From a virus: 21,713 bases of DNA. Where the stretch lies: the IMG/VR virus record IMGVR_UViG_3300048080_000657, one strand, 5' to 3'. The notes under the pieces were generated by a model. That model was not told where the DNA came from. It was given only the letters and a program-made list of their open reading frames with translations, and searched no databases. How positions within the stretch are numbered: the stretch's first letter is position 1; every line of letters begins with the position of its first letter. This document shows, piece after piece, positions 1-19,679 of this stretch. Both the position numbers and the translations under genes were made by a program.

Positions 1-333
1 GCCGGAGACGCCACTGTAGCCCGACACGCCCGAGTAGCCCGAGGTCCCCGAGACGCCGGAGAATCCGCTCACCCCCGAGTAGCCGCTGACTCCCGAGAAC
101 CCGCTGATCCCGGAGAAGCCGGAGGCTCCAGGGTTTGCCCCCGAATATCCGGAGACCCCCGAGTAGCCCGACGTCCCGGACACGCCCGAGTAGCCGGAGA
201 CGCCACTGTAGCCCGACACGCCCGAGTAGCCCGAGGTCCCCGAGACGCCGGAGAAACCGCTCACCCCCGAGTAGCCGCTGACTCCCGAGAACCCGCTGAT
301 CCCGGAGAAGCCCGAGGCTCCAGGGTTTTCCCC
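1..333. repeat. 192-bp (64-codon) near-identical tandem duplication inside the fibre gene
   Basis: 1-141 matches 193-333 with about 3 substitutions. Each unit has a G-[A/E]-N-P-G break in the SGX triplet register. Confidence 0.85.
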
Positions 334-939
334 GGAGAATCCGGAAACTCCCGAGTAGCCGGATGTTCCCGAAGCACCGGAGTAGCCGGAGACACCCGAG
401 TAACCCGAAGTCCCTGACGCGCCCGAGTAGCCGGACACTCCTGAGTAGCCAGAGGTCCCCGAGACGCCGGAGAAACCGCTCACCCCCGAGTAGCCCGAGG
501 TCCCGGCGCCACCCGTGCCCGAGTAGCCAGACACGCCCGAGAAACCCGAGGCTCCGGCACTACCCGTGCCCGAGTAGCCCGACACCCCCGAGAAACCTGA
601 GGCCCCGGTGCCACCTGCGCCGGAATATCCACTCACCCCCGAGTAGCCCGAGGCCCCGGCACCCCCCGTGCCGGAGTAGCCCGAGATCCCGGAAAACCCG
701 GACGCACTGCCCCCTCCGCCTCCCGAGAACCCGCTGATCCCGGAGAAGCCGGAGGCTCCCGGGCCGCCGCCTCCTCCGCCTGGCGCTGCGGGGACACCTC
801 CGCCCCCTCCGCCTCCGGGCAGGGTGGCCCGGAGCTCGATCGCGCAAAGATCGCGGAGGCGCACGGCGTCATCCGGATCCCGTGGTTGGCCGACGCGGCG
901 GACGCGGCCGCCTTTCATGTCCTTGTCGAGGTTGCTCAT
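1..939 (-). CDS. Gly/Ser-rich (S-G-X)n repeat fibre/spike protein, 3' end runs off the window
   Basis: Not in the ORF track because it is truncated. ATG at 939 reads MSNLDKDMKGGRVRRVGQPRDPDDAVRLRDLCAIELRATLPGGGGGGGVPAAPGGGGGGPGASGFSGISGFSG..., then SGY/SGF/SGV/SGT triplets towards position 1. The N-terminus resembles the 'MxGxRIxxVxxPxxxxDAV' motif of phage fibres. Confidence 0.85.
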   Translation of the reverse strand, partial: MSNLDKDMKGGRVRRVGQPRDPDDAVRLRDLCAIELRATLPGGGGGGGVPAAPGGGGGGPGASGFSGISGFSGGGGGSASGFSGISGYSGTGGAGASGYSGVSGYSGAGGTGASGFSGVSGYSGTGSAGASGFSGVSGYSGTGGAGTSGYSGVSGFSGVSGTSGYSGVSGYSGASGTSGYSGVSGYSGASGTSGYSGVSGFSGENPGASGFSGISGFSGVSGYSGVSGFSGVSGTSGYSGVSGYSGVSGYSGVSGTSGYSGVSGYSGANPGASGFSGISGFSGVSGYSGVSGFSGVSGTSGYSGVSGYSGVSG

Positions 940-2037: not shown

Positions 2038-2387
2038 CAGAGTATCCACCACTGCGTGCCGTCGCTGATGATCGTGAACGACGCGTAGAGCACCGAGAGG
2101 ACCTGCGTCAGGAGGCCGTCAATAGTCTCCGCACCGGCCGCGTCGATGGTCACGATGCTCAAGGTGTTGACCTTCTTGATCGTGTACATCTTGTTGACTG
2201 CGGTCGCCGCTGCGGGCAGGTTGACCGTTATCGCATTCAACAACGTGTCGCAGAGGACGACGACGTCGTCCAGGTCAAGCGTGACCGCGACTGCGGTCAC
2301 CGTCCGGGTGGACTGGATCCTTGCGGGGCGATATTCGATCTGGCCGCCACCCCCGTCAATCCTGTCGATGGCCTCGTATTCGCCCAC
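2037..2387 (-). CDS. Small fibre/spike-associated beta-sandwich protein
   Basis: Contains the D..AITVNLPAA...YTIKK...VTIDAAGAETIDG...Y.S.TIISDGTQWWI signature common in phage fibre modules. GTG start overlaps the upstream TAG. Confidence 0.8.
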   Translation of the reverse strand: MGEYEAIDRIDGGGGQIEYRPARIQSTRTVTAVAVTLDLDDVVVLCDTLLNAITVNLPAAATAVNKMYTIKKVNTLSIVTIDAAGAETIDGLLTQVLSVLYASFTIISDGTQWWIL

Positions 2388-3232
2388 TATGCTCTCCTGA
2401 AGTCGAAACGGCCCGCGTTTTCGACGATCGCGATGGTTCCGCCGAACGTGTCGGCACCGTCCGCCCCCAGGCGATCGAGGGCGAGATTGATCTTGTCTGC
2501 CGCCGCCATGAGCGCCGCGGAGAGCGTGAAACTCATCTGGTCCATCCGTTTGTCGGTTCCGATGACCGCAACCGTCTGCAGCAGTGTCTCATCGGCGGCC
2601 TTGCTCGTCAACTCGCCGTTGGCGATGTACCGGCAGGTGAGGCGCATCCGGACGTTTCCGTCCGCGGCGGCCGTGAACACAAAATAAGGAATCTGGATGT
2701 CCGGGTTCACCGTCAGGTCGATGTTCCGAGGGATGAGGAACGTGGTGACGACGCCCCTCGTGACTCCATCGATGAGATTGAACCCGAAGACGTTGTCTTC
2801 GGAGACGCGGCTTGGGCTGGGCGGCGGCGATGCAACCCACTCGACGGGATCCGAGACATTGGCGGTGCCGGAGAAACCGCTCACGCCAGAGATTCCGCTG
2901 TAGCCGGACGTCCCTGATGCGCCGGAGTAGCCAGAGACGCCACTGTAACCAGAGACCCCCGAGAAGCCCGAGGCTCCCGAGGCGCCGGAGTAGCCAGAGA
3001 TCCCGGAAAACCCGGATGCGCCGCCTGGCGCTCCGGAAATGCCGGAGTAGCCGGATAAGCCGGGGGCGCCGGGGGTGCCGCCGCCGCCCGAGAACGGGAA
3101 GCCAGCTACCCGGAGTTCCGGGCAGAGGAGCCGTGCGAGTTCGCAGAGGTCTCCGAGGCTGACGGGGTCGCCGGCCCATAGAGTTTTTCCCTGCTGCGTC
3201 TTGACGGAGCCGTCGGGCCGGATCGTCGCCAT
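2387..3232 (-). CDS. Spike/fibre protein with (SGX)n stalk and C-terminal beta-rich domain
   Basis: 281 aa: N-terminal GDPVSLGDLC motif, about 65 aa of SGY/SGF/SGI repeats, then a beta-strand-rich C-terminal domain. Paralogous in layout to the 939..<1 gene. Confidence 0.85.
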   Translation of the reverse strand: MATIRPDGSVKTQQGKTLWAGDPVSLGDLCELARLLCPELRVAGFPFSGGGGTPGAPGLSGYSGISGAPGGASGFSGISGYSGASGASGFSGVSGYSGVSGYSGASGTSGYSGISGVSGFSGTANVSDPVEWVASPPPSPSRVSEDNVFGFNLIDGVTRGVVTTFLIPRNIDLTVNPDIQIPYFVFTAAADGNVRMRLTCRYIANGELTSKAADETLLQTVAVIGTDKRMDQMSFTLSAALMAAADKINLALDRLGADGADTFGGTIAIVENAGRFDFRRA

Positions 3233-11539: not shown

Positions 11540-12009
11540 TTTTTTTCTTTCGCAGACCGGGGTTTCCGTGCCCCCTTGAGCGGCGAGGTACATGCGCTCT
11601 GCGTCTTCGTGAGGAGCAGATTGAGGCGCCCGTCGATCCTGTCCAGTCGCTCGCGGAGTTTCGGAATCTCCCCGGGGCCGAGGCGCCGGCGCGCGAGGGC
11701 AAGATTGAGGCTCTTAGCGTCCTCGGCTACGAGCCTGGCGAGGCGGGCGTTCTCTCCCATAGCGCCGTTCTGCTCGAGTGTCCGGGCCGCTATCCCCGCG
11801 AACCGCGCAGCCGTGTAGACCCCGGTCGCGACGTCGCGCAGGTCGACGCGCGCCCCCCGAGCCCTCGTCGCGCGTCCCTCTGAGACCAGGTAGCGAGCAA
11901 GCGTGATCCCGCAGCCGGCGTGCATGACCTGGTTGACTGCGGTCATGCAGCGCCCTGCGTGAGCGGCGATCTCCTTCGCCTGCGCCTCCGTGAGCGTGAG
12001 CTTCCTCAT
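11536..12009 (-). CDS. Hypothetical basic helical protein (157 aa)
   Basis: ATG at 12009 with GGAGGAGGA RBS and ATGA overlap with the upstream stop. Reads MRKLTLTEAQAKEIAAHAG... Confidence 0.7.
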   Translation of the reverse strand: MRKLTLTEAQAKEIAAHAGRCMTAVNQVMHAGCGITLARYLVSEGRATRARGARVDLRDVATGVYTAARFAGIAARTLEQNGAMGENARLARLVAEDAKSLNLALARRRLGPGEIPKLRERLDRIDGRLNLLLTKTQSACTSPLKGARKPRSAKEKK

Positions 12010-12584
12010 TCCTCCTCCGGGCTTCGGCGGGAGCCGCCCTCCGTGCACTCCCCATCGACCATGACGGAACCCTCTACTAGAAAACTCATGAAGGAAGGAA
12101 TCTCCAGCTTCTCCGGGAACGGCTCGCCGCGCCAGTAGCTCGTGGCCATCCGCCATGCCTCCTCGGCCTGGCGAATCTCAGGCCATCTCTCGACGAGCGC
12201 ATCCACCCAGCGCTCGTCCGTCATCGTCCGCAGGGCATCCCTCTTGGGAGTCACGTACCAACAGTAACGCCCCTCCCCTGGGGGATCCACCATGAGCTCC
12301 CGAGGCGCGTACATCGTAGCGTAGATCTTCCTCGCCGGCGCATGCGTGGGCCACGGGACGATGACGATCGAGCACATCCGGTCGGGGAGCCCGTGGAAGA
12401 AGGGGTCGCGCTCGGCCCTGCGCTCCTCCTCCGCCAAGATGCGCGCCTCCGCAAGGAGTTGCTCTACCTCCAGGTGGTCGTGCCCGAGCGCCTCCACGGC
12501 GCTTTGGTTCTCCTCACAGAAGCGGCGCGTGTCCACGAGGTCGCCCTTGCGGAAACGCCGGTCCGTGTAGAAGACGTTCGGCAT
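12006..12584 (-). CDS. Hypothetical protein (192 aa), leaderless
   Basis: ATG 6 nt downstream of an extended -10 element. Normal globular composition. Confidence 0.75.
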   Translation of the reverse strand: MPNVFYTDRRFRKGDLVDTRRFCEENQSAVEALGHDHLEVEQLLAEARILAEEERRAERDPFFHGLPDRMCSIVIVPWPTHAPARKIYATMYAPRELMVDPPGEGRYCWYVTPKRDALRTMTDERWVDALVERWPEIRQAEEAWRMATSYWRGEPFPEKLEIPSFMSFLVEGSVMVDGECTEGGSRRSPEEE

Positions 12585-12590
12585 GCAAAG

Positions 12591-12618
12591 ATTCTACCAG
12601 ATCAGCCGGGAGAGTCCA
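12591..12618 (-). promoter_or_regulatory. Extended -10 promoter, leftward
   Basis: TGGACT, 16 nt spacer, TAGAAT (12596-12591) preceded by TGn. Confidence 0.65.
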
Positions 12619-12723
12619 GCGCAGGACGCGCCATCCGATACAACACTCTCAACCTGTAGTGTGCGGCTGCCCGTGGAACCACAAGAATCGGCTTTTATTT
12701 TTCGCGCCGGTGTCGCTGGTCGC

Positions 12724-12751
12724 TTGACACTTCTCCTTATCGCGCTAGACT
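12724..12751 (+). promoter_or_regulatory. sigma70-type promoter for the replication operon
   Basis: TTGACA (12724-12729), 16 nt spacer, TAGACT (12746-12751), with an AT-rich tract upstream. Confidence 0.75.
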
Positions 12752-12757
12752 TCACCC

Positions 12758-12862
12758 GCGCGACGAACGCACCAGGACCCCGAGTCTCTCGGCCCGTGCC
12801 GTCGCCACACTCCGGCATGCGTTCGTCGCGCAGCCGGAAGGCGGCACGGGTCGCGATACTCG
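12758..12862 (+). ncRNA. Structured 5' leader of the rep gene (alternative or pseudoknotted helices)
   Basis: 14-bp perfect complement between 12758-12771 and 12818-12831 crosses a 23-bp imperfect helix between 12781-12803 and 12840-12862. Confidence 0.55.
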
Positions 12863-12912
12863 TGGTTGCGCTCGCGGTCTCCGTGTAGTGGATACTGGCC
12901 CTGGAGAGCCTC

Positions 12913-14676
12913 ATGGCGGCACCGACACCGAGGGAGTTCTTTGAAGCCCTCTGGTCCGATATCCGAGGCGGCGACATCCTTCTCAGGCTGATCGGATGCG
13001 GACAGGATTCCGAGGTCGAGGTCCGCGATGTCAGGTTCGCATGGCCTGCCGGCATAGACGAGATGCTCGGTCGGGCTTTCATGGAAGCCGGCTGGAACGC
13101 CTACTACGGGATCGGCATACGCTCGGTCCAAGGAACCGGGCCGCATAAGGTGTTCGCCGTGCCCGCCCTCTGGCATACGTTCAACCTCAACGTCGTTCCC
13201 CTGGACAAGGCTGTCGGGGCGATCAAGGCGTTCCCATTGAGGCCGTCCGCGGGCTTTCGCGCGGGCGACGTCCTGACGGCCGTCTGGTTCATTGAAGGAT
13301 CCTTCTGCGGAGAGACGGAGTTGCGGGGTGTCTGGCCGGCGAACCTCAAGCTTGCCGCCAAGCTCATGGCGTCCCTGGGAGAAGCCGGCGGGCACGAGGA
13401 TCCCCTGCTCGTGAAGGCCAACCTAGCCGTGGAGCATCGCCAACCGCAAGGGGTGCTACGGGTTCCAGGCTCGACGAACTACGAGACGAGCCAGCCTCAA
13501 GCCGTCGAGTTCGTCTCGTGGAACCCGGGCCTGCGTCACGATTTCGAGCAGTTCTACAAAATCCTTGTGGACACGCCTGCCGTCGACAAGGAAGAACCGA
13601 AGGTCGAGCCGGCGAAGCCGACCAAGCCAAAGCAGGCTGCTGTGCCCGACGAGGACGAGGATGGCCCCAAGCCTAGGGACATCGCGACCGACCTCAACCA
13701 GAAGCTCGCCAACGCCATGACGAAGGTCTGGATCGAAGGCTTCCGCGAGAAGATAGCCATGCTCGTGGCCGGTGGCCTTGCCCACGGGAACTACACCAAG
13801 GAGGCGGCGCTGCGGCTCGTACGTGCCGTCTGCACGCTGACCGGGGACCCCGATATTCCGCGCTTCGAAGAGATCATCGAACGGACCTTCAAGAGGCACG
13901 ACGACGGGGACCGTGTTGCGGGATGGCCCACGCTCGAGAAACTGATCGACGAGTTCCCTGGTGCGCTCCGCGACGAGGCAAAGAGGGCGTTCGAACTCAT
14001 CCGAAAAAGCGTCCCGAAGCCGCCGAAAGGCGGGGGCGGGGGTGGAAGCAACGGCCGCGGCAGGGCCGACGAGCCCGACTTCGACATCGTCGAACTCGTG
14101 CGGTACACGAGCGAACCCGCCCGCTATAGGGTACACCTGAAGCTCCATGCCGAAAAGGCTGGAAAGACGGACCTCGATGTCCATGTCGAGGAGGGTGACG
14201 TCTACTCTTTCGATGCCTTCCGCGAGAAGACCTTCGGTCAGGCACACATTTACCTCGCCAAGGTCAGCCAGACGGCTTGGGAAGTGCTGGTGGAGAAGGC
14301 ACCGTTCAAGATCGAGGAGGCTCCTCCAGAGGCGAAACCGTCCGGGGCGATCGCCTCGGCGCTCGAGGAGTTTGTCGAGGACAAGAAAGAGGACCCGGAG
14401 TTGGGTGACCTGAAGAGCTACCCTGGCTATGACGAGACGGATGTCTTCTTCAGGCTCCCCACCTTCAAGGGCTTCCTCAAGGACCAGGGGGTGAGATTCA
14501 CGGACCGCGAAATCCTGCACCAGATCAAAGAACTGGGCTGGAAGCGGGAAACTAAGCGGTTTGGGCAGGCAACCGCGAAAATCTGGCTCAAGCCACTGCA
14601 GAACGGGCACACGGAAGAGAAGCCACCGGAAGGCCTGTTCGAACCCGGCACCGATGCATCTGGTGGGATGGCGTGA
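12913..14676 (+). CDS. RepB-like AEP primase homolog with degenerate catalytic motifs, PriCT-like and C-terminal wHTH-like regions
   Basis: AYYGIGIR, ALW, PS, VLRVPGSTN scaffold of RepB-type primases and a PriCT-like helical segment (...VAGWPTL). The expected DxD is replaced by ALWHTFN and SGxGxHxYW by RAGDVLTAVW. Confidence 0.75.
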   Translation: MAAPTPREFFEALWSDIRGGDILLRLIGCGQDSEVEVRDVRFAWPAGIDEMLGRAFMEAGWNAYYGIGIRSVQGTGPHKVFAVPALWHTFNLNVVPLDKAVGAIKAFPLRPSAGFRAGDVLTAVWFIEGSFCGETELRGVWPANLKLAAKLMASLGEAGGHEDPLLVKANLAVEHRQPQGVLRVPGSTNYETSQPQAVEFVSWNPGLRHDFEQFYKILVDTPAVDKEEPKVEPAKPTKPKQAAVPDEDEDGPKPRDIATDLNQKLANAMTKVWIEGFREKIAMLVAGGLAHGNYTKEAALRLVRAVCTLTGDPDIPRFEEIIERTFKRHDDGDRVAGWPTLEKLIDEFPGALRDEAKRAFELIRKSVPKPPKGGGGGGSNGRGRADEPDFDIVELVRYTSEPARYRVHLKLHAEKAGKTDLDVHVEEGDVYSFDAFREKTFGQAHIYLAKVSQTAWEVLVEKAPFKIEEAPPEAKPSGAIASALEEFVEDKKEDPELGDLKSYPGYDETDVFFRLPTFKGFLKDQGVRFTDREILHQIKELGWKRETKRFGQATAKIWLKPLQNGHTEEKPPEGLFEPGTDASGGMA

Positions 14677-14862
14677 AATCCCCTTATATATATACCCCTT
14701 TTCTGGAGATACACGGACCACCCCTTATGATCAATCGACTTTCAGGGGGAACATCGGTAACGCGGTCACAACAGGTGTATCTAGTTAATTGCCAAAAACT
14801 TACAGTGTTACCGGTGGGGTGGGTTATCGGGAACAGAAAACCGGTATATATATAAGGGGATT
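14677..14862. other. Putative replication origin: AT-rich region bounded by inverted repeats
   Basis: Perfect 20-bp IR AATCCCCTTATATATATACC (14677-14696 / 14843-14862), extending to 27/29 bp. Inner CGGTAAC/GTTACCG IR (14755-14761 / 14807-14813) flanks an AT-rich core. Confidence 0.65.
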
Positions 14863-14868
14863 GGGTCC

Positions 14869-16521
14869 GTGGCCGAAACTGGATGTATTCTCGGGCCCCC
14901 AGGGGTGGGCAAGACAACCGCCTGCATCACCCTGTGCCGTTCTTGGATCGACCAGGGGGTGGATTCCTCCCTGATCGCCTACCTCGCCTTCACCCGAGCG
15001 GCTGCCAAAGAGGCGGTTATCCGCATCATGGAGGGTGAGGAGGACGTCTCCGAGGATACCGTCAAGGAGAGGTTTCCGCTCTTCCGCACCATCCACAGCC
15101 TTGCCTACCGCGGGCTCAAGGGGGCGAAACCCGACCTCAGGGTGATGACGCCGGCCGACATGAAAGCCTTTTCTAAGGAAACGGGCTACCAGGGGAGGTT
15201 CGCCGTATCCGACTGGGAGGACATGTCTGACGCCCTCCAAAAGGCCCGCGAATCCTCTACCGACAGCGTCTGGGACAAAGCTCTGGCGGCGTACATGATC
15301 AGCCGCGTCACCGCCGCCACCCCGGAGGGGTTCGAGCGCGCGCGCACCGAGATGTCGTCCGCCGCGCTCCGCATGGGGTTCCTCCAAGGACACGTCTATC
15401 GCGCGCTCATCAAGCGCTACGAAGACTTTAAGAAGCGCGAGGGACTAGTCGACTTCACAGACATGCTGGAGTTCGCGGCGACGGAGATGAAGCCGCTTGA
15501 CCATGTGAAGAGGGTCGTACTCGACGAATCGCAGGATCTTTGTGCCGCCCACTATCAGATAGGCAGGCTCTTCCCGAACGCGGACGAGGTCTGGTACGCC
15601 GGAGATGAGGATCAGGCTATTTTTTCATTCAGTGGAGCGTCGGCCGATCTCTTCCTCGATCGCTATCGTCGCGCCTCACGGCGGATCATCCTTCGCCAGA
15701 CGTACCGCTTTGGCAGGGAGATCGTGGACTATTCCGCCAAGATCATCCGGCGTATCCGGAACCGGATCGAGAAGAACATCATCGGCGTGGCGGGCCGCCA
15801 GGGCCGCATCGAGAAGGCCGGAAAGTTCGTGCCGCCAAAGGGCGAAGTGCTGATCCTGCATAGGCACGTTCAAGGATGCCAGGAGATCGCGCGCGCATTC
15901 GTGGATGCGGGGCTACCTTTCAGGAACGAGCGGGGTCGGGATCCGCTTTCAGCGCACGAGAGGATCAAGGCATGGATGGCGCTTGAGCAGCTCGCGAACG
16001 GCGCGACGGCCTCCGCCGGCGGCATCCGGATCCTCCTCGAGGACTACATGCCGAGCTTCAGGGTGGACGAGCACGGGCAGAAAGTGCGGTTGATCGCCCG
16101 CGGCGGGATCAAGAAGATCGGAGAAATAGCGGGCTCCGGTATCGTGATGAACCTGACAGACCTGGTTGGCGGATCGATCCTCACCGAGCGCGGTGTCGAG
16201 ATCATCAGCTCTCGTGGTTACCAAGTCTTCGATCATTGGCAGGACTTCGAGTACTACGGGAAGGTCGTCGAGAACGGCCATGACCTGGACGGCGTAAAAG
16301 TGCCGGTCATCACGACGATACATGGGTCGAAGGGAAGACAGGCGGAGCGCGTGGTCGTGTTCAGCGAGATGAACCGGCGCTGCCTGGAGGACCGCGATAC
16401 GGAGCACAGGCTCGCCTACGTCGCCGCCACGCGGACGAAGACGGACCTCACGATATGCGGCGAGGACACGGTGGAATGGGCATCGATGGATTATGACTAC
16501 CCGGAGCCAGCGGGAGCGTGA
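14869..16521 (+). CDS. UvrD/Rep-family (SF1A) helicase, compact phage type
   Basis: Motifs GPPGVGKTT, LAFTRAAA, RTIHSLA, DFTDML, LDESQD, GDEDQAIF, LRQTYR, TIHGSKG, YVAATR. Confidence 0.95.
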   Translation: MAETGCILGPPGVGKTTACITLCRSWIDQGVDSSLIAYLAFTRAAAKEAVIRIMEGEEDVSEDTVKERFPLFRTIHSLAYRGLKGAKPDLRVMTPADMKAFSKETGYQGRFAVSDWEDMSDALQKARESSTDSVWDKALAAYMISRVTAATPEGFERARTEMSSAALRMGFLQGHVYRALIKRYEDFKKREGLVDFTDMLEFAATEMKPLDHVKRVVLDESQDLCAAHYQIGRLFPNADEVWYAGDEDQAIFSFSGASADLFLDRYRRASRRIILRQTYRFGREIVDYSAKIIRRIRNRIEKNIIGVAGRQGRIEKAGKFVPPKGEVLILHRHVQGCQEIARAFVDAGLPFRNERGRDPLSAHERIKAWMALEQLANGATASAGGIRILLEDYMPSFRVDEHGQKVRLIARGGIKKIGEIAGSGIVMNLTDLVGGSILTERGVEIISSRGYQVFDHWQDFEYYGKVVENGHDLDGVKVPVITTIHGSKGRQAERVVVFSEMNRRCLEDRDTEHRLAYVAATRTKTDLTICGEDTVEWASMDYDYPEPAGA

Positions 16522-18302
16522 TGGAGCTCAGGCCCTACCAACAGGCAGCGATCGCGGCGTCCGCGGAGGCGGAAGCGCGCGGAGTGACGAGACAGCTCAT
16601 CGTATGGGCAACAGGGTTGGGGAAAACCGTGGCAATTTCTGCTCTCGTAGCGGGAAAGGGAACACCGCGGACGTTCGGCTTCATGCACCGTGACGAACTC
16701 ATCCAACAGTCGATCGAGAAGCTGAAAATCTTCAATCCGGCGGCGAGAATCGGCGTCGAGAAGGCCGAGCTGCGCGCCGACCCGGACAAAGACAACATCG
16801 TCCTCGCGAGCGTCCAAAGCGTGGGGAGAAGCGACCGAGCGCGAATCTCGCGCTTTGACCCGGACTGGCCGCAGCTCGTTTGGCTGGACGAGGCCCATCA
16901 TGCCGTGGCAGACACCTTTCTCAATGTTCTCGATCACTTTGGTCTTCACGGCGAGTCGCCGAGACGTGACCGGCTTTTGATTGGAACGACGGCAACACCG
17001 GATCGCCTCGACGAGATGGGTTTCGATAAGATTTTCGACGACGTCGTCCACCGCTACGGTCTGCGGGAGGCGATCCGCGACGCTTGGCTGGCCGACATCC
17101 GGGCCTGGAGGAGGAAGAGCGACCTCGACCTCGCAGGCGTTCGTACGGTCAAGGGCGAGTTCGTGGAGAAGGACCTTGCCGAGGCGATCGACGCCTCGAG
17201 GATGAAGCAGGTCGCGGTCGAGACCTGGGAGGAGCGGTGCCGCGGGCGCCGGAGCCTCTTCTTCTGTGTGACGAAGGCGCATGCGCACGAGATCGCGGAG
17301 GCCATCAAGGCGAGAGGCGGGAAGGTCGCGGTCGTTGTGGATGACACGCCGAAGGCGGACCGCCGCGCCGCGATCGAGCTCTTCAAGTCGGGAGATCTCG
17401 ACGCTTTGACCGGAGTGTCCGTGTTTACTGAAGGTTTCGACGCCCCGGAGACCGAGTGCATCCACATCATTCGGCCCACGCGATCACGCGCTCTCTACAC
17501 GCAAATTATCGGTCGTGGGACGCGCAGGACTCCCACGAAGTCCTTCGTCGAGCTCTACGACTACACCGACCAGGTCCACGACGTCTGCTCGATCGGGCAG
17601 ATCTTCGGGCTGCCGGATTCGTGGGCACTGAACGGCCAGTCCGTGCCCGAGGAGGCTGACAAGGTCGAGGAGATTGAGGCGGATCTCGGCCTCAAGGCTG
17701 AAGGCACCAAGGGGATGCAGGAGCTCATCGGCCGCATCCACGAGCGGAGGATCGAGCTCATCAGAGGCACGCTTGCCGATAGCGGGCTCCCCTCGAGGCT
17801 CGCATGGATCAAGCCTTCCCAGGCGAAGGAGAGGTGGTTCATCTCGTGGAGGAACGAGACGAAGAACGGTCTCGGCAGGGTGCCTCCCAGCGTGCGCGAG
17901 GAGGCGGAAGACGTCATCGCGGACATGAATCTCTGGGGCGTCTACGAGCGGATCGAGGTCTTCAGGAATGAACTCGGGCGCTACGAGGCAAAGCTCCACC
18001 GAAGCGGTCCTGGGGATTCGAACACGAAGGGCGGCAGGCTCGACTCGGACCATTCGCTCGTGAAGCTCGTCTCGCGCCTGGACAAGTTGATCTTGGACCG
18101 GCGGCCTCACAAGGAGAAGCTCCTCCGGAAGAACGCTCCTTGGACCCGCCAACCCGCATCGGACAAGCAGAAGGAAGTCCTCCTCAGGAAGGGCGTGCCG
18201 CCCTCGATCGCGACGGGACTCACGAAGGGCGAGGCGTACAGCCTGATCAATATGCCCGGGGCCGTCATCAAGAAGTGGTTCGACGGCGTGGAGAAGGCGT
18301 GA
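16518..18302 (+). CDS. SF2 DEAH helicase (ResIII/Irc3-like phage helicase)
   Basis: LRPYQ, ATGLGKT, DEAH, TATPDRLD, EGFDAP, QIIGRGTR and a C-terminal PASDKQ...LTKGEA motif. ATGA overlap with the upstream gene. Confidence 0.95.
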   Translation: MMELRPYQQAAIAASAEAEARGVTRQLIVWATGLGKTVAISALVAGKGTPRTFGFMHRDELIQQSIEKLKIFNPAARIGVEKAELRADPDKDNIVLASVQSVGRSDRARISRFDPDWPQLVWLDEAHHAVADTFLNVLDHFGLHGESPRRDRLLIGTTATPDRLDEMGFDKIFDDVVHRYGLREAIRDAWLADIRAWRRKSDLDLAGVRTVKGEFVEKDLAEAIDASRMKQVAVETWEERCRGRRSLFFCVTKAHAHEIAEAIKARGGKVAVVVDDTPKADRRAAIELFKSGDLDALTGVSVFTEGFDAPETECIHIIRPTRSRALYTQIIGRGTRRTPTKSFVELYDYTDQVHDVCSIGQIFGLPDSWALNGQSVPEEADKVEEIEADLGLKAEGTKGMQELIGRIHERRIELIRGTLADSGLPSRLAWIKPSQAKERWFISWRNETKNGLGRVPPSVREEAEDVIADMNLWGVYERIEVFRNELGRYEAKLHRSGPGDSNTKGGRLDSDHSLVKLVSRLDKLILDRRPHKEKLLRKNAPWTRQPASDKQKEVLLRKGVPPSIATGLTKGEAYSLINMPGAVIKKWFDGVEKA

Positions 18303-18599: not shown

Positions 18600-19679
18600 A
18601 TGTCCGAGCCTGAAAACGGGGAGTTGACGCCCACGACGGCGCCGACGGCGACCGTCGCGAGCCTCTCGATCAACGACCGGACGCTCCATCTCAACCGCGA
18701 CCAGGTGGAACTCCTCAAGCGCACCGTCTGCCGGGACTCGACCGACGACGAACTCGGGTTCTTCCTGGCCGTCGCAAGCCGAACGGGTTTGGACCCCTTC
18801 GTCCGCCAGATTCACGCCGTCAAGCGCTGGAGCCGTGAGAACGATCGCTGGGAGATGGCCATCCAGACCGGCATCGACGGCTACCGCCTGATCGCCCACC
18901 GGACGGGGCAGATGAACGGCCAGGACGGCCCCTTCTGGTGCGGACCGGACGGCGTCTGGAAGGACGTCTGGCTATCTGATGAGCCGCCCGTCGCCTGCAA
19001 GGTCGTGGTCTGGCGGAAGGGACACGACAAGCCCTACACCGGGATTGCGCGCTTCAACGCCTACGTCCAGCGGACGAAGGAAGGAGGGCCGAACCGGTTC
19101 TGGAAGCTGATGCCGGACAACATGATCGCGAAGTGCAGCGAGAGTTTGGCGCTGCGCAAGGCCTTCCCGGCGGAGCTTGCAGGCATCTTCACCAACGAGG
19201 AGATGGAGCAGGCCGATAACGAGCCGGGAGCCCCGCCGCAGAGGTCGCAGAAATCATCGAGGAGGGGCGACACGGCCGCCGGCACTACCGCGGAGGGCAC
19301 GCCCAATCCGACGAAGTCACCGAAGGAGGCGGCCCTCGAGGCACTTCAGAAGAACCTGGTCATCGTCCTTCGGAAGGCGACCGGTGCGGCGGACGATGTC
19401 GCGGCGCGGACTCACCTCAAGGCGCTTGCGAACGTCGACCATGAGTCCAAGATGTCCGAGGAAGACATCCGCGACCTCGGCAAGGCCCTCCATGCGATCG
19501 GCAAGGGGGCGAAGCTCGAGGAAGGGATGATCACGGTCATCGACTCCGACGAGCAACTCTGGCCGAGGAAGCAAGCCAAGAAGAAGGCATCCCCTCCTCC
19601 GAAGGAGGAACCGCCTCCGGCCGAACCAGTTGCTGCGGCGAAGATCCCGGTGAGCGCCGTCGAGAAGCCTCTCTTCTAG
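18600..19679 (+). CDS. bet: Phage single-strand annealing protein, Bet/RecT family
   Basis: LDPFVRQIHAVKR, IQTGIDGYRLIAHRTG and W..MP..MIAKCSESLALRKAFP. Strong AAGGAG RBS. Confidence 0.92.
   Translation: MSEPENGELTPTTAPTATVASLSINDRTLHLNRDQVELLKRTVCRDSTDDELGFFLAVASRTGLDPFVRQIHAVKRWSRENDRWEMAIQTGIDGYRLIAHRTGQMNGQDGPFWCGPDGVWKDVWLSDEPPVACKVVVWRKGHDKPYTGIARFNAYVQRTKEGGPNRFWKLMPDNMIAKCSESLALRKAFPAELAGIFTNEEMEQADNEPGAPPQRSQKSSRRGDTAAGTTAEGTPNPTKSPKEAALEALQKNLVIVLRKATGAADDVAARTHLKALANVDHESKMSEEDIRDLGKALHAIGKGAKLEEGMITVIDSDEQLWPRKQAKKKASPPPKEEPPPAEPVAAAKIPVSAVEKPLF

What the first reader, a model, noticed from the sequence alone, without database searches (positions are those of the whole stretch)
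12913..14676. Apparently catalytically dead RepB-like primase retained as a full-length gene
Seen: the RepB/AEP scaffold is recognisable (YYGIGIR, ALW, PS, LRVPGSTN). However, motif I (hhDhD) reads ALWHTFN and motif II (SGxGxH) reads RAGDVLT, so the metal-binding Asp and nucleotide-binding His appear lost. PriCT-like and wHTH-like regions remain, and no fused helicase is present. Inference: repurposed as an origin-binding initiator or helicase loader acting on the adjacent inverted repeats, with priming supplied by the host, by transcription or by recombination.
Basis: partly seen in the sequence, partly recalled or inferred. Interest (0 to 1): 0.7.

Follow-up and report, generated by a model that had tools for sequence, protein, structure and literature searches.

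The report
Catalytically dead primase-like phage replication initiator
A gene in a very large sediment phage encodes a replication protein with the fold of a DNA primase that has lost the residues needed to make primers. It has been kept intact under selection, most likely to recognise the origin-like DNA element beside it and to work with the neighbouring helicase.

Summary
ORF 12913-14676 encodes an intact 587-aa protein with three domains: an AEP primase fold (Z 19.0 to cyanophage S-2L PrimPol, 14.4 to RepB'), a PriCT-like helical bundle, and a C-terminal module ending in a winged helix.

It belongs to an uncultivated phage/MGE family, about 200 clusters. In that family 54 of 54 other full-length representatives, and 83 of 83 more distant AEP domains, keep [DE]xD, the Gly-rich loop, R, N and K. 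P0001 sits in a monophyletic subclade (SH-aLRT 99) with T/S-x-N/D at motif I. The glycines, N189 and K191 are also gone. Half of the subclade, P0001 included, has also lost the motif II His.

The domain is not decaying:
- Within-clade identity is 40%.
- A related strain gives about 26 synonymous to 12 non-synonymous changes, with silent changes in codons 89 and 91.

The gene, an inverted-repeat-bounded intergenic element and an orthologous SF1 helicase are syntenic in both dead subclades. A comparable element follows an active relative.

Best reading (about 0.6): the family are ColE2-Rep/PrimHYQ-type initiator-primases, and this clade kept origin binding and helicase coupling but lost priming. 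No biochemistry or 3D active-site inspection was possible. The scan had not noted this protein on other DNA.

The parts
12724..12751 (+). Promoter-like site upstream of the gene (TTGACA-16-TAGACT)
   Evidence: Consensus scan, 10 of 12 matches. This is a consensus match only.
12913..14676 (+). CDS of the 587-aa dead-AEP initiator-like protein (P0001)
   Evidence: Homologues at E 1e-165 to 1e-30. Profile-profile alignment to active relatives at E 1e-121.
12913..13578 (+). N-terminal AEP/PrimPol-fold domain (residues 1-222), predicted non-catalytic
   Evidence: Model pLDDT 90-98 across the domain. 6zp9 Z 19.0, 3h25 RepB' Z 14.4, CAPP Z 11.6, PriS Z 9.6.
13165..13185 (+). Motif I remnant A85-LWH-T89-F-N91; active relatives have [DE]xD here
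   Evidence: Silent changes in codons 89 and 91 in a related strain.
13246..13287 (+). Motif II remnant S112...G118-DVL-T122...W125; active relatives have SGGGx[HQY]
13456..13485 (+). 'LRVPGSTNYE': the motif IV-like Arg183 is kept; N189 is kept in P0001 but is not conserved in the clade; K191 is replaced by E
   Evidence: The role of the Arg is taken from PMC5862659.
13675..14022 (+). Helical-bundle domain (residues 255-370), PriCT-like
   Evidence: Sequence matches to the segment just after Prim-Pol domains and just before DUF3987 in fusion proteins. RepB' helix bundle Z 5.5, which is weak. One relative each hits PriCT_1 and RepB_primase_C.
14074..14607 (+). C-terminal module (residues 388-565): beta-meander plus helices, ending in a winged helix (469-565)
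   Evidence: phrog_21866 'primase' at 5e-8. Winged-helix matches at Z 5.9-6.7, including oriT-bound TcpK. The same module is found in the Atlas standalone and in clusters some of whose members carry Prim-Pol, PriCT_1 or AEP-TOTE domains, and behind a DnaG-type N-terminus in P0061.
14677..14862 (.). Intergenic element bounded by inverted repeats (29-nt arms, 93% complementary, (TA)4 core, nested GGTAAC/GTTACC, AT-rich): the candidate cognate site or origin
   Evidence: The same architecture sits at the same position in L001 and after an active relative in L003.
14869..16521 (+). UvrD-like SF1 helicase, the conserved downstream partner
   Evidence: Pfam UvrD-helicase 1.4e-20. phrog_1967 6e-61. 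48-53% identical to the helicase downstream of the dead homologue in L001.
16518..18302 (+). SF2 helicase (ResIII/Helicase_C), same operon
18600..19679 (+). RecT-family single-strand annealing protein; possible route to recombination-dependent priming
   Evidence: Pfam RecT 6e-30. phrog_2780 4e-70.

Best explanation
P0001 is a non-catalytic descendant of a phage/MGE initiator-primase with the layout AEP domain + PriCT-like bundle + winged-helix module. This is the architecture of the PrimHYQ and ColE2-Rep type.

Shown here:
- The fold and the homology.
- Loss of both motif I carboxylates, the Gly-rich loop, N189 and K191 in a monophyletic clade.
- Purifying selection on the dead domain.
- Conserved synteny of the gene, an inverted-repeat-bounded element and an orthologous SF1 helicase.

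Inferred mechanism:
1. The protein binds the inverted-repeat/iteron element just downstream of its own gene, through the winged helix and possibly the former template-binding face of the AEP domain. RepB' binds the ssiA hairpin in this way.
2. It helps to open the AT-rich core.
3. It recruits the adjacent UvrD-like helicase.
4. The primer comes from elsewhere: a second phage primase in the unseen part of the roughly 216-kb genome, host DnaG, a transcript, or RecT-mediated strand invasion.
For: Fold: Z 19.0 to S-2L PrimPol and Z 14.4 to RepB'.

Family-level Pfam: RepB_primase in 31 of 75 relatives.

Active-site loss: column table. 83 of 83 independent AEP domains keep [DE]xD, G, G, R and N.

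Literature on the catalytic residues:
- E85, D87 and D146 are crucial in S-2L PrimPol (PMC8065100).
- The DID to LIL mutant of PolpTN2 is inactive, and the acidic residues of motifs I and III are nearly universal in the supergroup (PMC5862659).

Single loss: the clade is separated with SH-aLRT 99.

Selection:
- The N-domain is 40% identical within the dead clade, against 40-52% in active clades.
- A 95% relative differs by conservative changes.
- 26 synonymous against 12 non-synonymous listed differences, 11 against 4 in the N-domain.

Synteny and cis element: L001 has a 35-nt inverted repeat and a 48-53% identical SF1 helicase. Active L003 has a 26-nt inverted repeat, five TGGTGGTAY repeats and an AT-rich tract.

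Architecture precedent: PrimHYQ is primase + PriCT-1 + HTH, and ColE2 Rep unwinds DNA through its PriCT-HTH part.

Modularity: the C-terminal half also occurs behind a DnaG-type primase domain (P0061), and its terminal module in clusters carrying other AEP families.
Against: - No assay was done, and no model coordinates were available. A rearranged metal site cannot be excluded: E157 is acidic in 8 of 10 clade members, D163 is invariant in the clade, and T89 and N91 are themselves conserved.
- Binding of this protein to the inverted-repeat element is untested. The element could instead be an RNA structure or a regulatory site within the operon.
- Context is known for only four related loci.
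- No second primase was found, but only 21.7 kb of the roughly 216-kb genome was visible.
- The pN/pS figure rests on the 38 coding-region differences among the 40 of 96 that the tool listed, taken from metagenome contigs.
Confidence: 0.6

Rival explanations
1. The protein is still an active primase or polymerase with a non-canonical active site, for example E157 or D163 together with N91 and T89, or catalysis assisted by a partner.
For: - T89 and N91 are nearly invariant rather than drifting, D163 is invariant, and E/D is at position 157 in 8 of 10 members.
- R183 is kept, and the motif II His is kept in subclade B.
- In RepE/RepS the motif III Asp is replaced by Gln, with nearby acidic residues possibly compensating (PMC5862659).
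Against: - Both motif I carboxylates are missing, and mutating them kills PolpTN2.
- They are called crucial in S-2L and human PrimPol.
- The Gly-rich loop, N189 and K191, which are invariant in 54 of 54 or 53 of 54 active relatives, are also gone.
- No exception was found among 83 further AEP domains.
Confidence: 0.12
2. The protein is not a replication initiator. It is a DNA-binding regulator (winged-helix repressor or activator of the early operon) or a component of a conflict system that uses a dead AEP as a sensor.
For: - It has a winged-helix C-terminus.
- The inverted repeats overlap a promoter-like site at 14704-14731 and the helicase ribosome-binding region.
- The mid-domain gives a distant hit to an AEP-TOTE conflict-system protein, and the C-terminal module occurs in AEP-TOTE clusters.
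- An active relative sits beside SIR2-like and integrase genes.
Against: - The gene heads an operon of two helicases and RecT.
- The whole family has the initiator-primase layout.
- The downstream element has iterons and an AT-rich tract, which is typical of origins.
- The helicase partner is conserved, and in L001 it carries an intein.
Confidence: 0.15
3. The N-terminal domain is a decaying remnant: a pseudogenised domain carried along by a still useful C-terminal half.
For: - The dead N-domains have diverged more from active ones (27.6% identity) than active ones have from each other (40%).
- The ratio of N-domain to C-domain identity is lowest in subclade A, at 0.76.
Against: - The domain is full length in at least 11 clusters at 50% identity or less, on contigs up to 216 kb.
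- Within-clade N-domain identity is 40%, and the model is confident.
- Synonymous changes outnumber non-synonymous ones 11 to 4 in the N-domain.
- Standalone C-terminal modules exist, so the domain could have been shed.
Confidence: 0.05

Closest known systems
[quoted passage not shown] 2018, PMC5862659)
   Same: - MGE or phage encoded.
- Primase domain + PriCT-like bundle + C-terminal (w)HTH, with no fused helicase.
- Motif II alternates H, Y and Q in the wider family (H58/Y13/Q12).
- The conserved motif IV Arg (R183) is present.
   Different: - The P0001 clade lacks the motif I acidic pair, which that paper reports as nearly universal.
- P0001 has an SF1 helicase gene next door, whereas PrimHYQ elements are reported to lack helicases.
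- Direct sequence comparison with a named PrimHYQ member was not done.
RepB' primase of plasmid RSF1010 (PDB 3H20/3H25; Pfam RepB_primase PF16793)
   Same: - AEP catalytic-domain fold (Z 14.4) followed by a helix bundle.
- Relatives of P0001 hit PF16793 (31 of 75).
- RepB' recognises two ssi sites at oriV; their inverted arrangement on opposite strands is from my own knowledge. This resembles the inverted-repeat arms beside P0001.
   Different: - RepB' is an active primase.
- P0001 itself does not hit PF16793 and lacks the metal ligands.
- RSF1010 uses a separate initiator (RepC) and a hexameric helicase (RepA).
Cyanophage S-2L PrimPol AEP domain (PDB 6ZP9)
   Same: It is the closest solved structure: Z 19.0, rmsd 2.5 A over 176 residues, 19% identity. 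It is also followed by a PriCT-2-like domain.
   Different: - S-2L has E85, D87 and D146 and is an active polymerase fused to an SF3-like helicase.
- P0001 has T89 and N91 and no fused helicase.
ColE2 Rep initiator-primase
   Same: As described in PMC5862659: primase + PriCT-1 + HTH, with origin unwinding through the non-catalytic part. This is a functional template for what P0001 may retain.
   Different: ColE2 Rep synthesises its own primer. Homology to P0001 was not tested here.
Inactivated AEP domains of mriyavirus helicase-primase proteins (PMC10962738)
   Same: A viral lineage in which most AEP domains have disrupted catalytic motifs but are retained, with initiation predicted to come from another enzyme.
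   Different: - These are eukaryotic viruses.
- Their AEP is fused to an SF3 helicase.
- The replacement initiator is an HUH endonuclease.
- The AEP family is unrelated.

Membership tests
AEP (archaeo-eukaryotic primase) superfamily | AEP/PrimPol alpha-beta catalytic-domain fold | tested here: met
   6zp9 Z 19.0 (176 residues, rmsd 2.5 A). 3h25 Z 14.4. CAPP, Prim-PolC, LigD-Pol and PriS Z 9-12.
AEP (archaeo-eukaryotic primase) superfamily | Motif I: two acidic metal ligands ([DE]xD) | tested here: not met
   T89 and N91 in P0001. Clade: T9/S1 and N9/D1. Active relatives: D43/E11 and D54. 83 of 83 further domains keep the pair.
AEP (archaeo-eukaryotic primase) superfamily | Motif II: sGxGx[H/Q/Y] nucleotide-binding loop | tested here: not met
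   P0001 reads AGDVLT122. G120 is lost and position 122 is T. Subclade B keeps the His.
AEP (archaeo-eukaryotic primase) superfamily | Motif III acidic residue | tested here: inconclusive
   hhalign pairs the family 'GGD' with L-G-E157 (E5/D3/N2). MAFFT pairs it with L171. D163 is invariant but lies in a clade-specific insertion.
AEP (archaeo-eukaryotic primase) superfamily | Primase or polymerase activity | not testable with these tools
   Needs a biochemical assay.
Pfam RepB_primase (PF16793) | Match to the family profile | tested here: not met
   P0001 has no Pfam hit at E up to 1. 0 of 10 dead-clade members match. 31 of 75 homologues match, best 9.3e-8. Homology is therefore transitive only.
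PrimHYQ / PrimPol-PV1 supergroup | Conserved motif IV Arg | tested here: met
   R183. R9 of 10 in the clade and R54 of 54 in active relatives. The equivalence to motif IV is inferred from the 'R.PG' context.
PrimHYQ / PrimPol-PV1 supergroup | Primase + PriCT-1 + HTH layout without a helicase domain | tested here: inconclusive
   The winged helix is supported at Z about 6-6.7. The helical bundle is only weakly PriCT- or RepB'-like (Z 5.5; one relative hits PriCT_1 at 0.005). No helicase domain is present.
PrimHYQ / PrimPol-PV1 supergroup | Sequence clustering with named members (for example the Bacillus phage IEBH primase) | not tested

The most novel reading that the evidence does not exclude
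A lineage of very large sediment phages, on contigs of 72-216 kb, has turned its initiator-primase into a pseudo-enzyme. The pseudo-enzyme still reads the origin (inverted repeats, iterons, AT-rich tract) and hands it to a UvrD-like SF1 helicase. Initiation in these phages would therefore not depend on the Rep-borne primase and would rely on recombination, a transcript, or a separate primase. The conserved T89/N91 pocket may act as a non-catalytic reader of a nucleotide or a DNA end.
Probability: 0.45. Interest if true: 0.65.

Novelty: new variant of a known kind. Interest (0 to 1): 0.55.

Why it matters
Non-catalytic descendants of replication enzymes show which parts of an initiator are needed apart from catalysis. 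Here active and dead versions of the same three-domain protein coexist, and both have recognisable cis elements beside the gene. This gives a natural separation-of-function series for three questions:
- What do the AEP fold and the PriCT-wHTH half contribute to origin recognition and helicase recruitment?
- How does a large phage start DNA synthesis without its Rep-borne primase?
- Can an SF1 UvrD-like helicase serve as a replicative partner?

It also warns annotators. These proteins would be labelled 'DNA primase' by fold or remote homology although they probably cannot prime.

Tried and rejected
- Pfam (E up to 1) and a PDB sequence search with P0001 alone gave nothing meaningful.
- tblastn of P0001 against 50,697 phage records: no match. 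Active relatives do hit annotated phage primases, but over the AEP domain only.
- Two viral-contig scans and one genome-contig scan with dead-clade alignments: no loci.
- The metagenome scan returned only three loci.
The rest of the roughly 216-kb contig could therefore not be searched for a second primase or a polymerase. Full codon alignments for dN/dS could not be built.
- Model coordinates are not exposed, so distances between E157, D163 and T89/N91 could not be measured.
- Base-level alignment of the intergenic elements of the window and L001 shows no sequence homology. Only the architecture is shared.
- The wide structural search of residues 250-570 gave no match above Z 6.5. The beta-meander subdomain (390-426) remains unassigned.
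- No RNA holder was listed for the stretch.
- Iyer et al. 2005 is not held.
- The GC-skew minimum near 12-13 kb coincides with the switch of coding strand, so it was not used as origin evidence.
Full report
**1. The gene and its setting**

ORF 12913-14676 (+) is intact: 587 aa, ATG start, GGAGAG 5 nt upstream. It heads a plus-strand block with these parts:
- a 186-bp intergenic element (14677-14862);
- a UvrD-like SF1 helicase (14869-16521);
- an SF2 ResIII/Helicase_C helicase (16518-18302);
- a RecT-family annealing protein (18600-19679).

The left half of the window is transcribed the other way and holds particle genes, including collagen-repeat proteins that match tail-fibre PHROGs. The protein is recorded on a 216,145-bp contig from a sediment metagenome. 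No whole genome is held.

**2. Fold and domains**

P0001 alone matches nothing in Pfam or in PDB sequences. It gives only weak PHROG 'primase' hits.

An exhaustive HMMER search found 196 representative clusters at E up to 1e-3, and 54 at E up to 1e-30. With 75 of these as the alignment, AlphaFold2 gave a confident model with mean pLDDT 89.5. The model has three domains.

- Residues 4-219 are an AEP fold:
  - cyanophage S-2L PrimPol 6zp9: Z 19.0, rmsd 2.5 A, 176 residues, 19% identity;
  - RepB' catalytic domain 3h25: Z 14.4;
  - CRISPR-associated PrimPol, Prim-PolC, LigD-Pol and archaeal and eukaryotic PriS: Z 9-12.
- Residues 255-370 are a helical bundle.
  - They match, by sequence, the segment that follows Prim-Pol domains or precedes DUF3987 in fusion proteins.
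  - They match the RepB' helix bundle only weakly (Z 5.5).
- Residues 388-565 are a beta-meander plus helices ending in a winged helix (469-565).
  - Winged-helix matches have Z 5.9-6.7. They include PadR/LmrR and TcpK bound to oriT.
  - In the ESM Atlas this C-terminal module is a phage module. It is found standalone and in clusters some of whose members carry Prim-Pol, AEP-TOTE or PriCT_1 domains.
  - In P0061 the same C-terminal half follows a DnaG-type zinc ribbon plus Toprim domain.

**3. The active site**

I aligned 67 full-length representatives. The 54 ordinary members read '..W.[DE].DFK', 'PS....SGGG.[HQ]..W', 'G.D' and 'R.PGT.N.K'.

P0001 and nine other clusters (P0002-5, P0008, P0009, P0011, P0012, P0025) differ at almost every invariant position:

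| Position | Dead clade (10) | Active relatives (54) |
|---|---|---|
| 89 | T9/S1 | D43/E11 |
| 91 | N9/D1 | D54 |
| 93 | variable | K43/R7 |
| 118 | G6 | G54 |
| 120 | no G (V5 T2 L1 S1) | G54 |
| 189 | D5/G4/N1 | N54 |
| 191 | variable | K53 |
| 183 | R9 (kept) | R54 |

The motif II His is lost only in the five clusters nearest P0001 (T, Q or D). It is kept in the other five. H, Q and Y alternate at this position in the wider family, so it is a weak marker.

An independent sample came from 83 AEP domains in bacterial and archaeal genome contigs. They were retrieved through the 'DLAR..R.PG' motif, not through motif I. Among them:
- 83 of 83 keep [DE]xD, both glycines, R and N;
- 80 of 83 keep K;
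- motif II reads H58/Y13/Q12.

The only exceptions in the 85-row hit set were L001 and L002, which are dead-clade members.

The literature gives the functional weight of these residues:
- E85, D87 and D146 are described as crucial in S-2L PrimPol (PMC8065100). The family profile aligns its motif II and motif III to that protein's H and D146.
- In the PrimPol-PV1 supergroup the motif I and III acidic residues are 'nearly universally conserved'. A DID to LIL mutant of PolpTN2 is inactive. A motif IV Arg is essential (PMC5862659).

The fate of motif III in P0001 is unclear. hhalign pairs 'GGD' with L-G-E157, a position that is acidic in 8 of 10 clade members. MAFFT pairs it with L171. D163 is invariant but lies in a clade-specific insertion.

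**4. One loss, then retention**

A maximum-likelihood tree (66 rows, LG+C20, quick search) puts the ten clusters on one side of a branch with SH-aLRT 99, nested among active members. The clade has two well-supported halves (98 and 100). Its branch lengths are ordinary.

Mean identity comparisons:

| Comparison | N-domain | C-domain |
|---|---|---|
| Within the dead clade | 40% | 42% |
| Within active clades | 40-52% | not summarised here |
| Dead against active | 27.6% | 32% |
| Active against active | 40% | 28% |

The AEP domain therefore shifted once and was then held.

A 95% identical relative (P0151) differs in the N-domain mostly by conservative changes.

I laid contigs of a second sediment study on the gene. 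Of the 38 listed differences in the CDS, 26 are synonymous and 12 non-synonymous, which gives a crude pN/pS of about 0.14. The N-domain has 11 synonymous and 4 non-synonymous. Codons 89 and 91 carry silent changes. The tool listed only 40 of 96 differences, so this is an indication, not a measurement.

Dead-clade proteins sit on contigs of 216, 191, 131 and 72 kb.

**5. Context in relatives**

- L001 and L002 carry a member of the other dead half: 33% identity, motif I 'TTID', motif II His replaced by Leu.
  - Its stop codon is followed by a 240-bp gap bounded by a 35-nt, 94% inverted repeat.
  - The arm has the same build as in the window: 'ATCCC..TT', then an alternating purine-pyrimidine run ((CG)5 here, (TA)4 in the window), then a C-run.
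  - The gap encloses five or six GTAACA repeats and an A/T tract.
  - Next comes an SF1 helicase 48-53% identical to the window's, interrupted by a Hint/intein module.
- L003 carries an active-type relative ('EFD', 'SGGGIQ').
  - It is followed by a 26-nt, 96% inverted repeat of (CG)8TAAGAAAAAA around an A/T tract and five TGGTGGTAY repeats, up to the contig end.
  - Upstream lies a DinG-like helicase.
- L004 carries an active relative in a Planctomycetota-binned contig.
  - It has only a weak inverted repeat.
  - It is followed by SIR2-like and integrase genes, so it looks like a small integrative element.

The cis element next to the gene is therefore probably a family trait. The SF1 helicase partner is shared by both dead halves. 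Four loci are a small sample.

**6. Interpretation**

The family has the layout described for PrimHYQ: primase + PriCT-1 + HTH, with no helicase. It also has the H/Y/Q variability at motif II. For the related ColE2 Rep the non-catalytic part is reported to unwind the origin (PMC5862659). RepB' recognises two ssi sites, and its AEP domain binds the ssiA hairpin (PMC4538821).

The simplest reading is that the P0001 clade kept the origin-recognition and partner-recruitment half of an initiator-primase and lost priming. However, the origin role looks inherited rather than new.

Rivals considered:
- A rearranged but working active site (about 0.12).
- A regulatory or conflict-system role (about 0.15).
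- Simple decay (about 0.05).

Retained but inactivated AEP domains have a published precedent in mriyaviruses (PMC10962738). I found no description of such a clade among phage RepB'/PrimHYQ-like proteins in the library searched. That is not proof that none exists.

**7. Limits**

- No biochemistry was possible.
- There was no access to model coordinates.
- No RNA data are available.

The scan's own index holds this protein only on this window.

Noticed in passing
window 14677-14862; L001 4104-4343; L003 11921-12100: The gap after the AEP-like gene is bounded by long inverted repeats in three loci. Each repeat contains an alternating purine-pyrimidine run: (TA)4, (CG)5 and (CG)8. The repeats enclose short repeated words (GGTAAC/GTTACC; GTAACA five or six times; TGGTGGTAY five times) and an A/T tract. 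The architecture is conserved but the sequence is not.
   Followed up: partly
L001 4344-6497: The SF1 helicase orthologue carries a Hint/intein insertion of about 150 aa between its two conserved halves, just after the 'GD.NQ' motif. The window's copy has none.
   Followed up: partly
protein P0061: A relative has a DnaG-type zinc ribbon plus Toprim domain in place of the AEP domain, in front of the same PriCT-like and C-terminal half. This is a primase-domain swap on a constant initiator chassis.
   Followed up: partly
L004 1-3985: An active-type family member, in a contig binned to a Planctomycetota MAG, is followed by a SIR2-like gene and a tyrosine integrase. This suggests a small integrative element rather than a large phage.
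   Followed up: partly
window 1-939 and 2387-3232 (minus strand): Collagen-repeat proteins match tail-fibre PHROGs (phrog_5073 at 3.5e-13).
   Followed up: no
window 12000-13000: Cumulative GC skew reaches its minimum here. The place coincides with the divergent switch of coding strand, so the skew cannot separate an origin from transcription bias.
   Followed up: no
window 12913-14876: A second sediment study (run X2) holds contigs 85-99% identical to this stretch, so close strains of this phage occur in more than one sample. Small indels were seen at 14804, 14809 and 14834, inside the intergenic inverted-repeat element.
   Followed up: partly
window 13456-14721 (minus strand): A 421-aa antisense ORF lies opposite the gene. 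It is probably a high-GC artefact, since the plus-strand frame has strong homologues.
   Followed up: no
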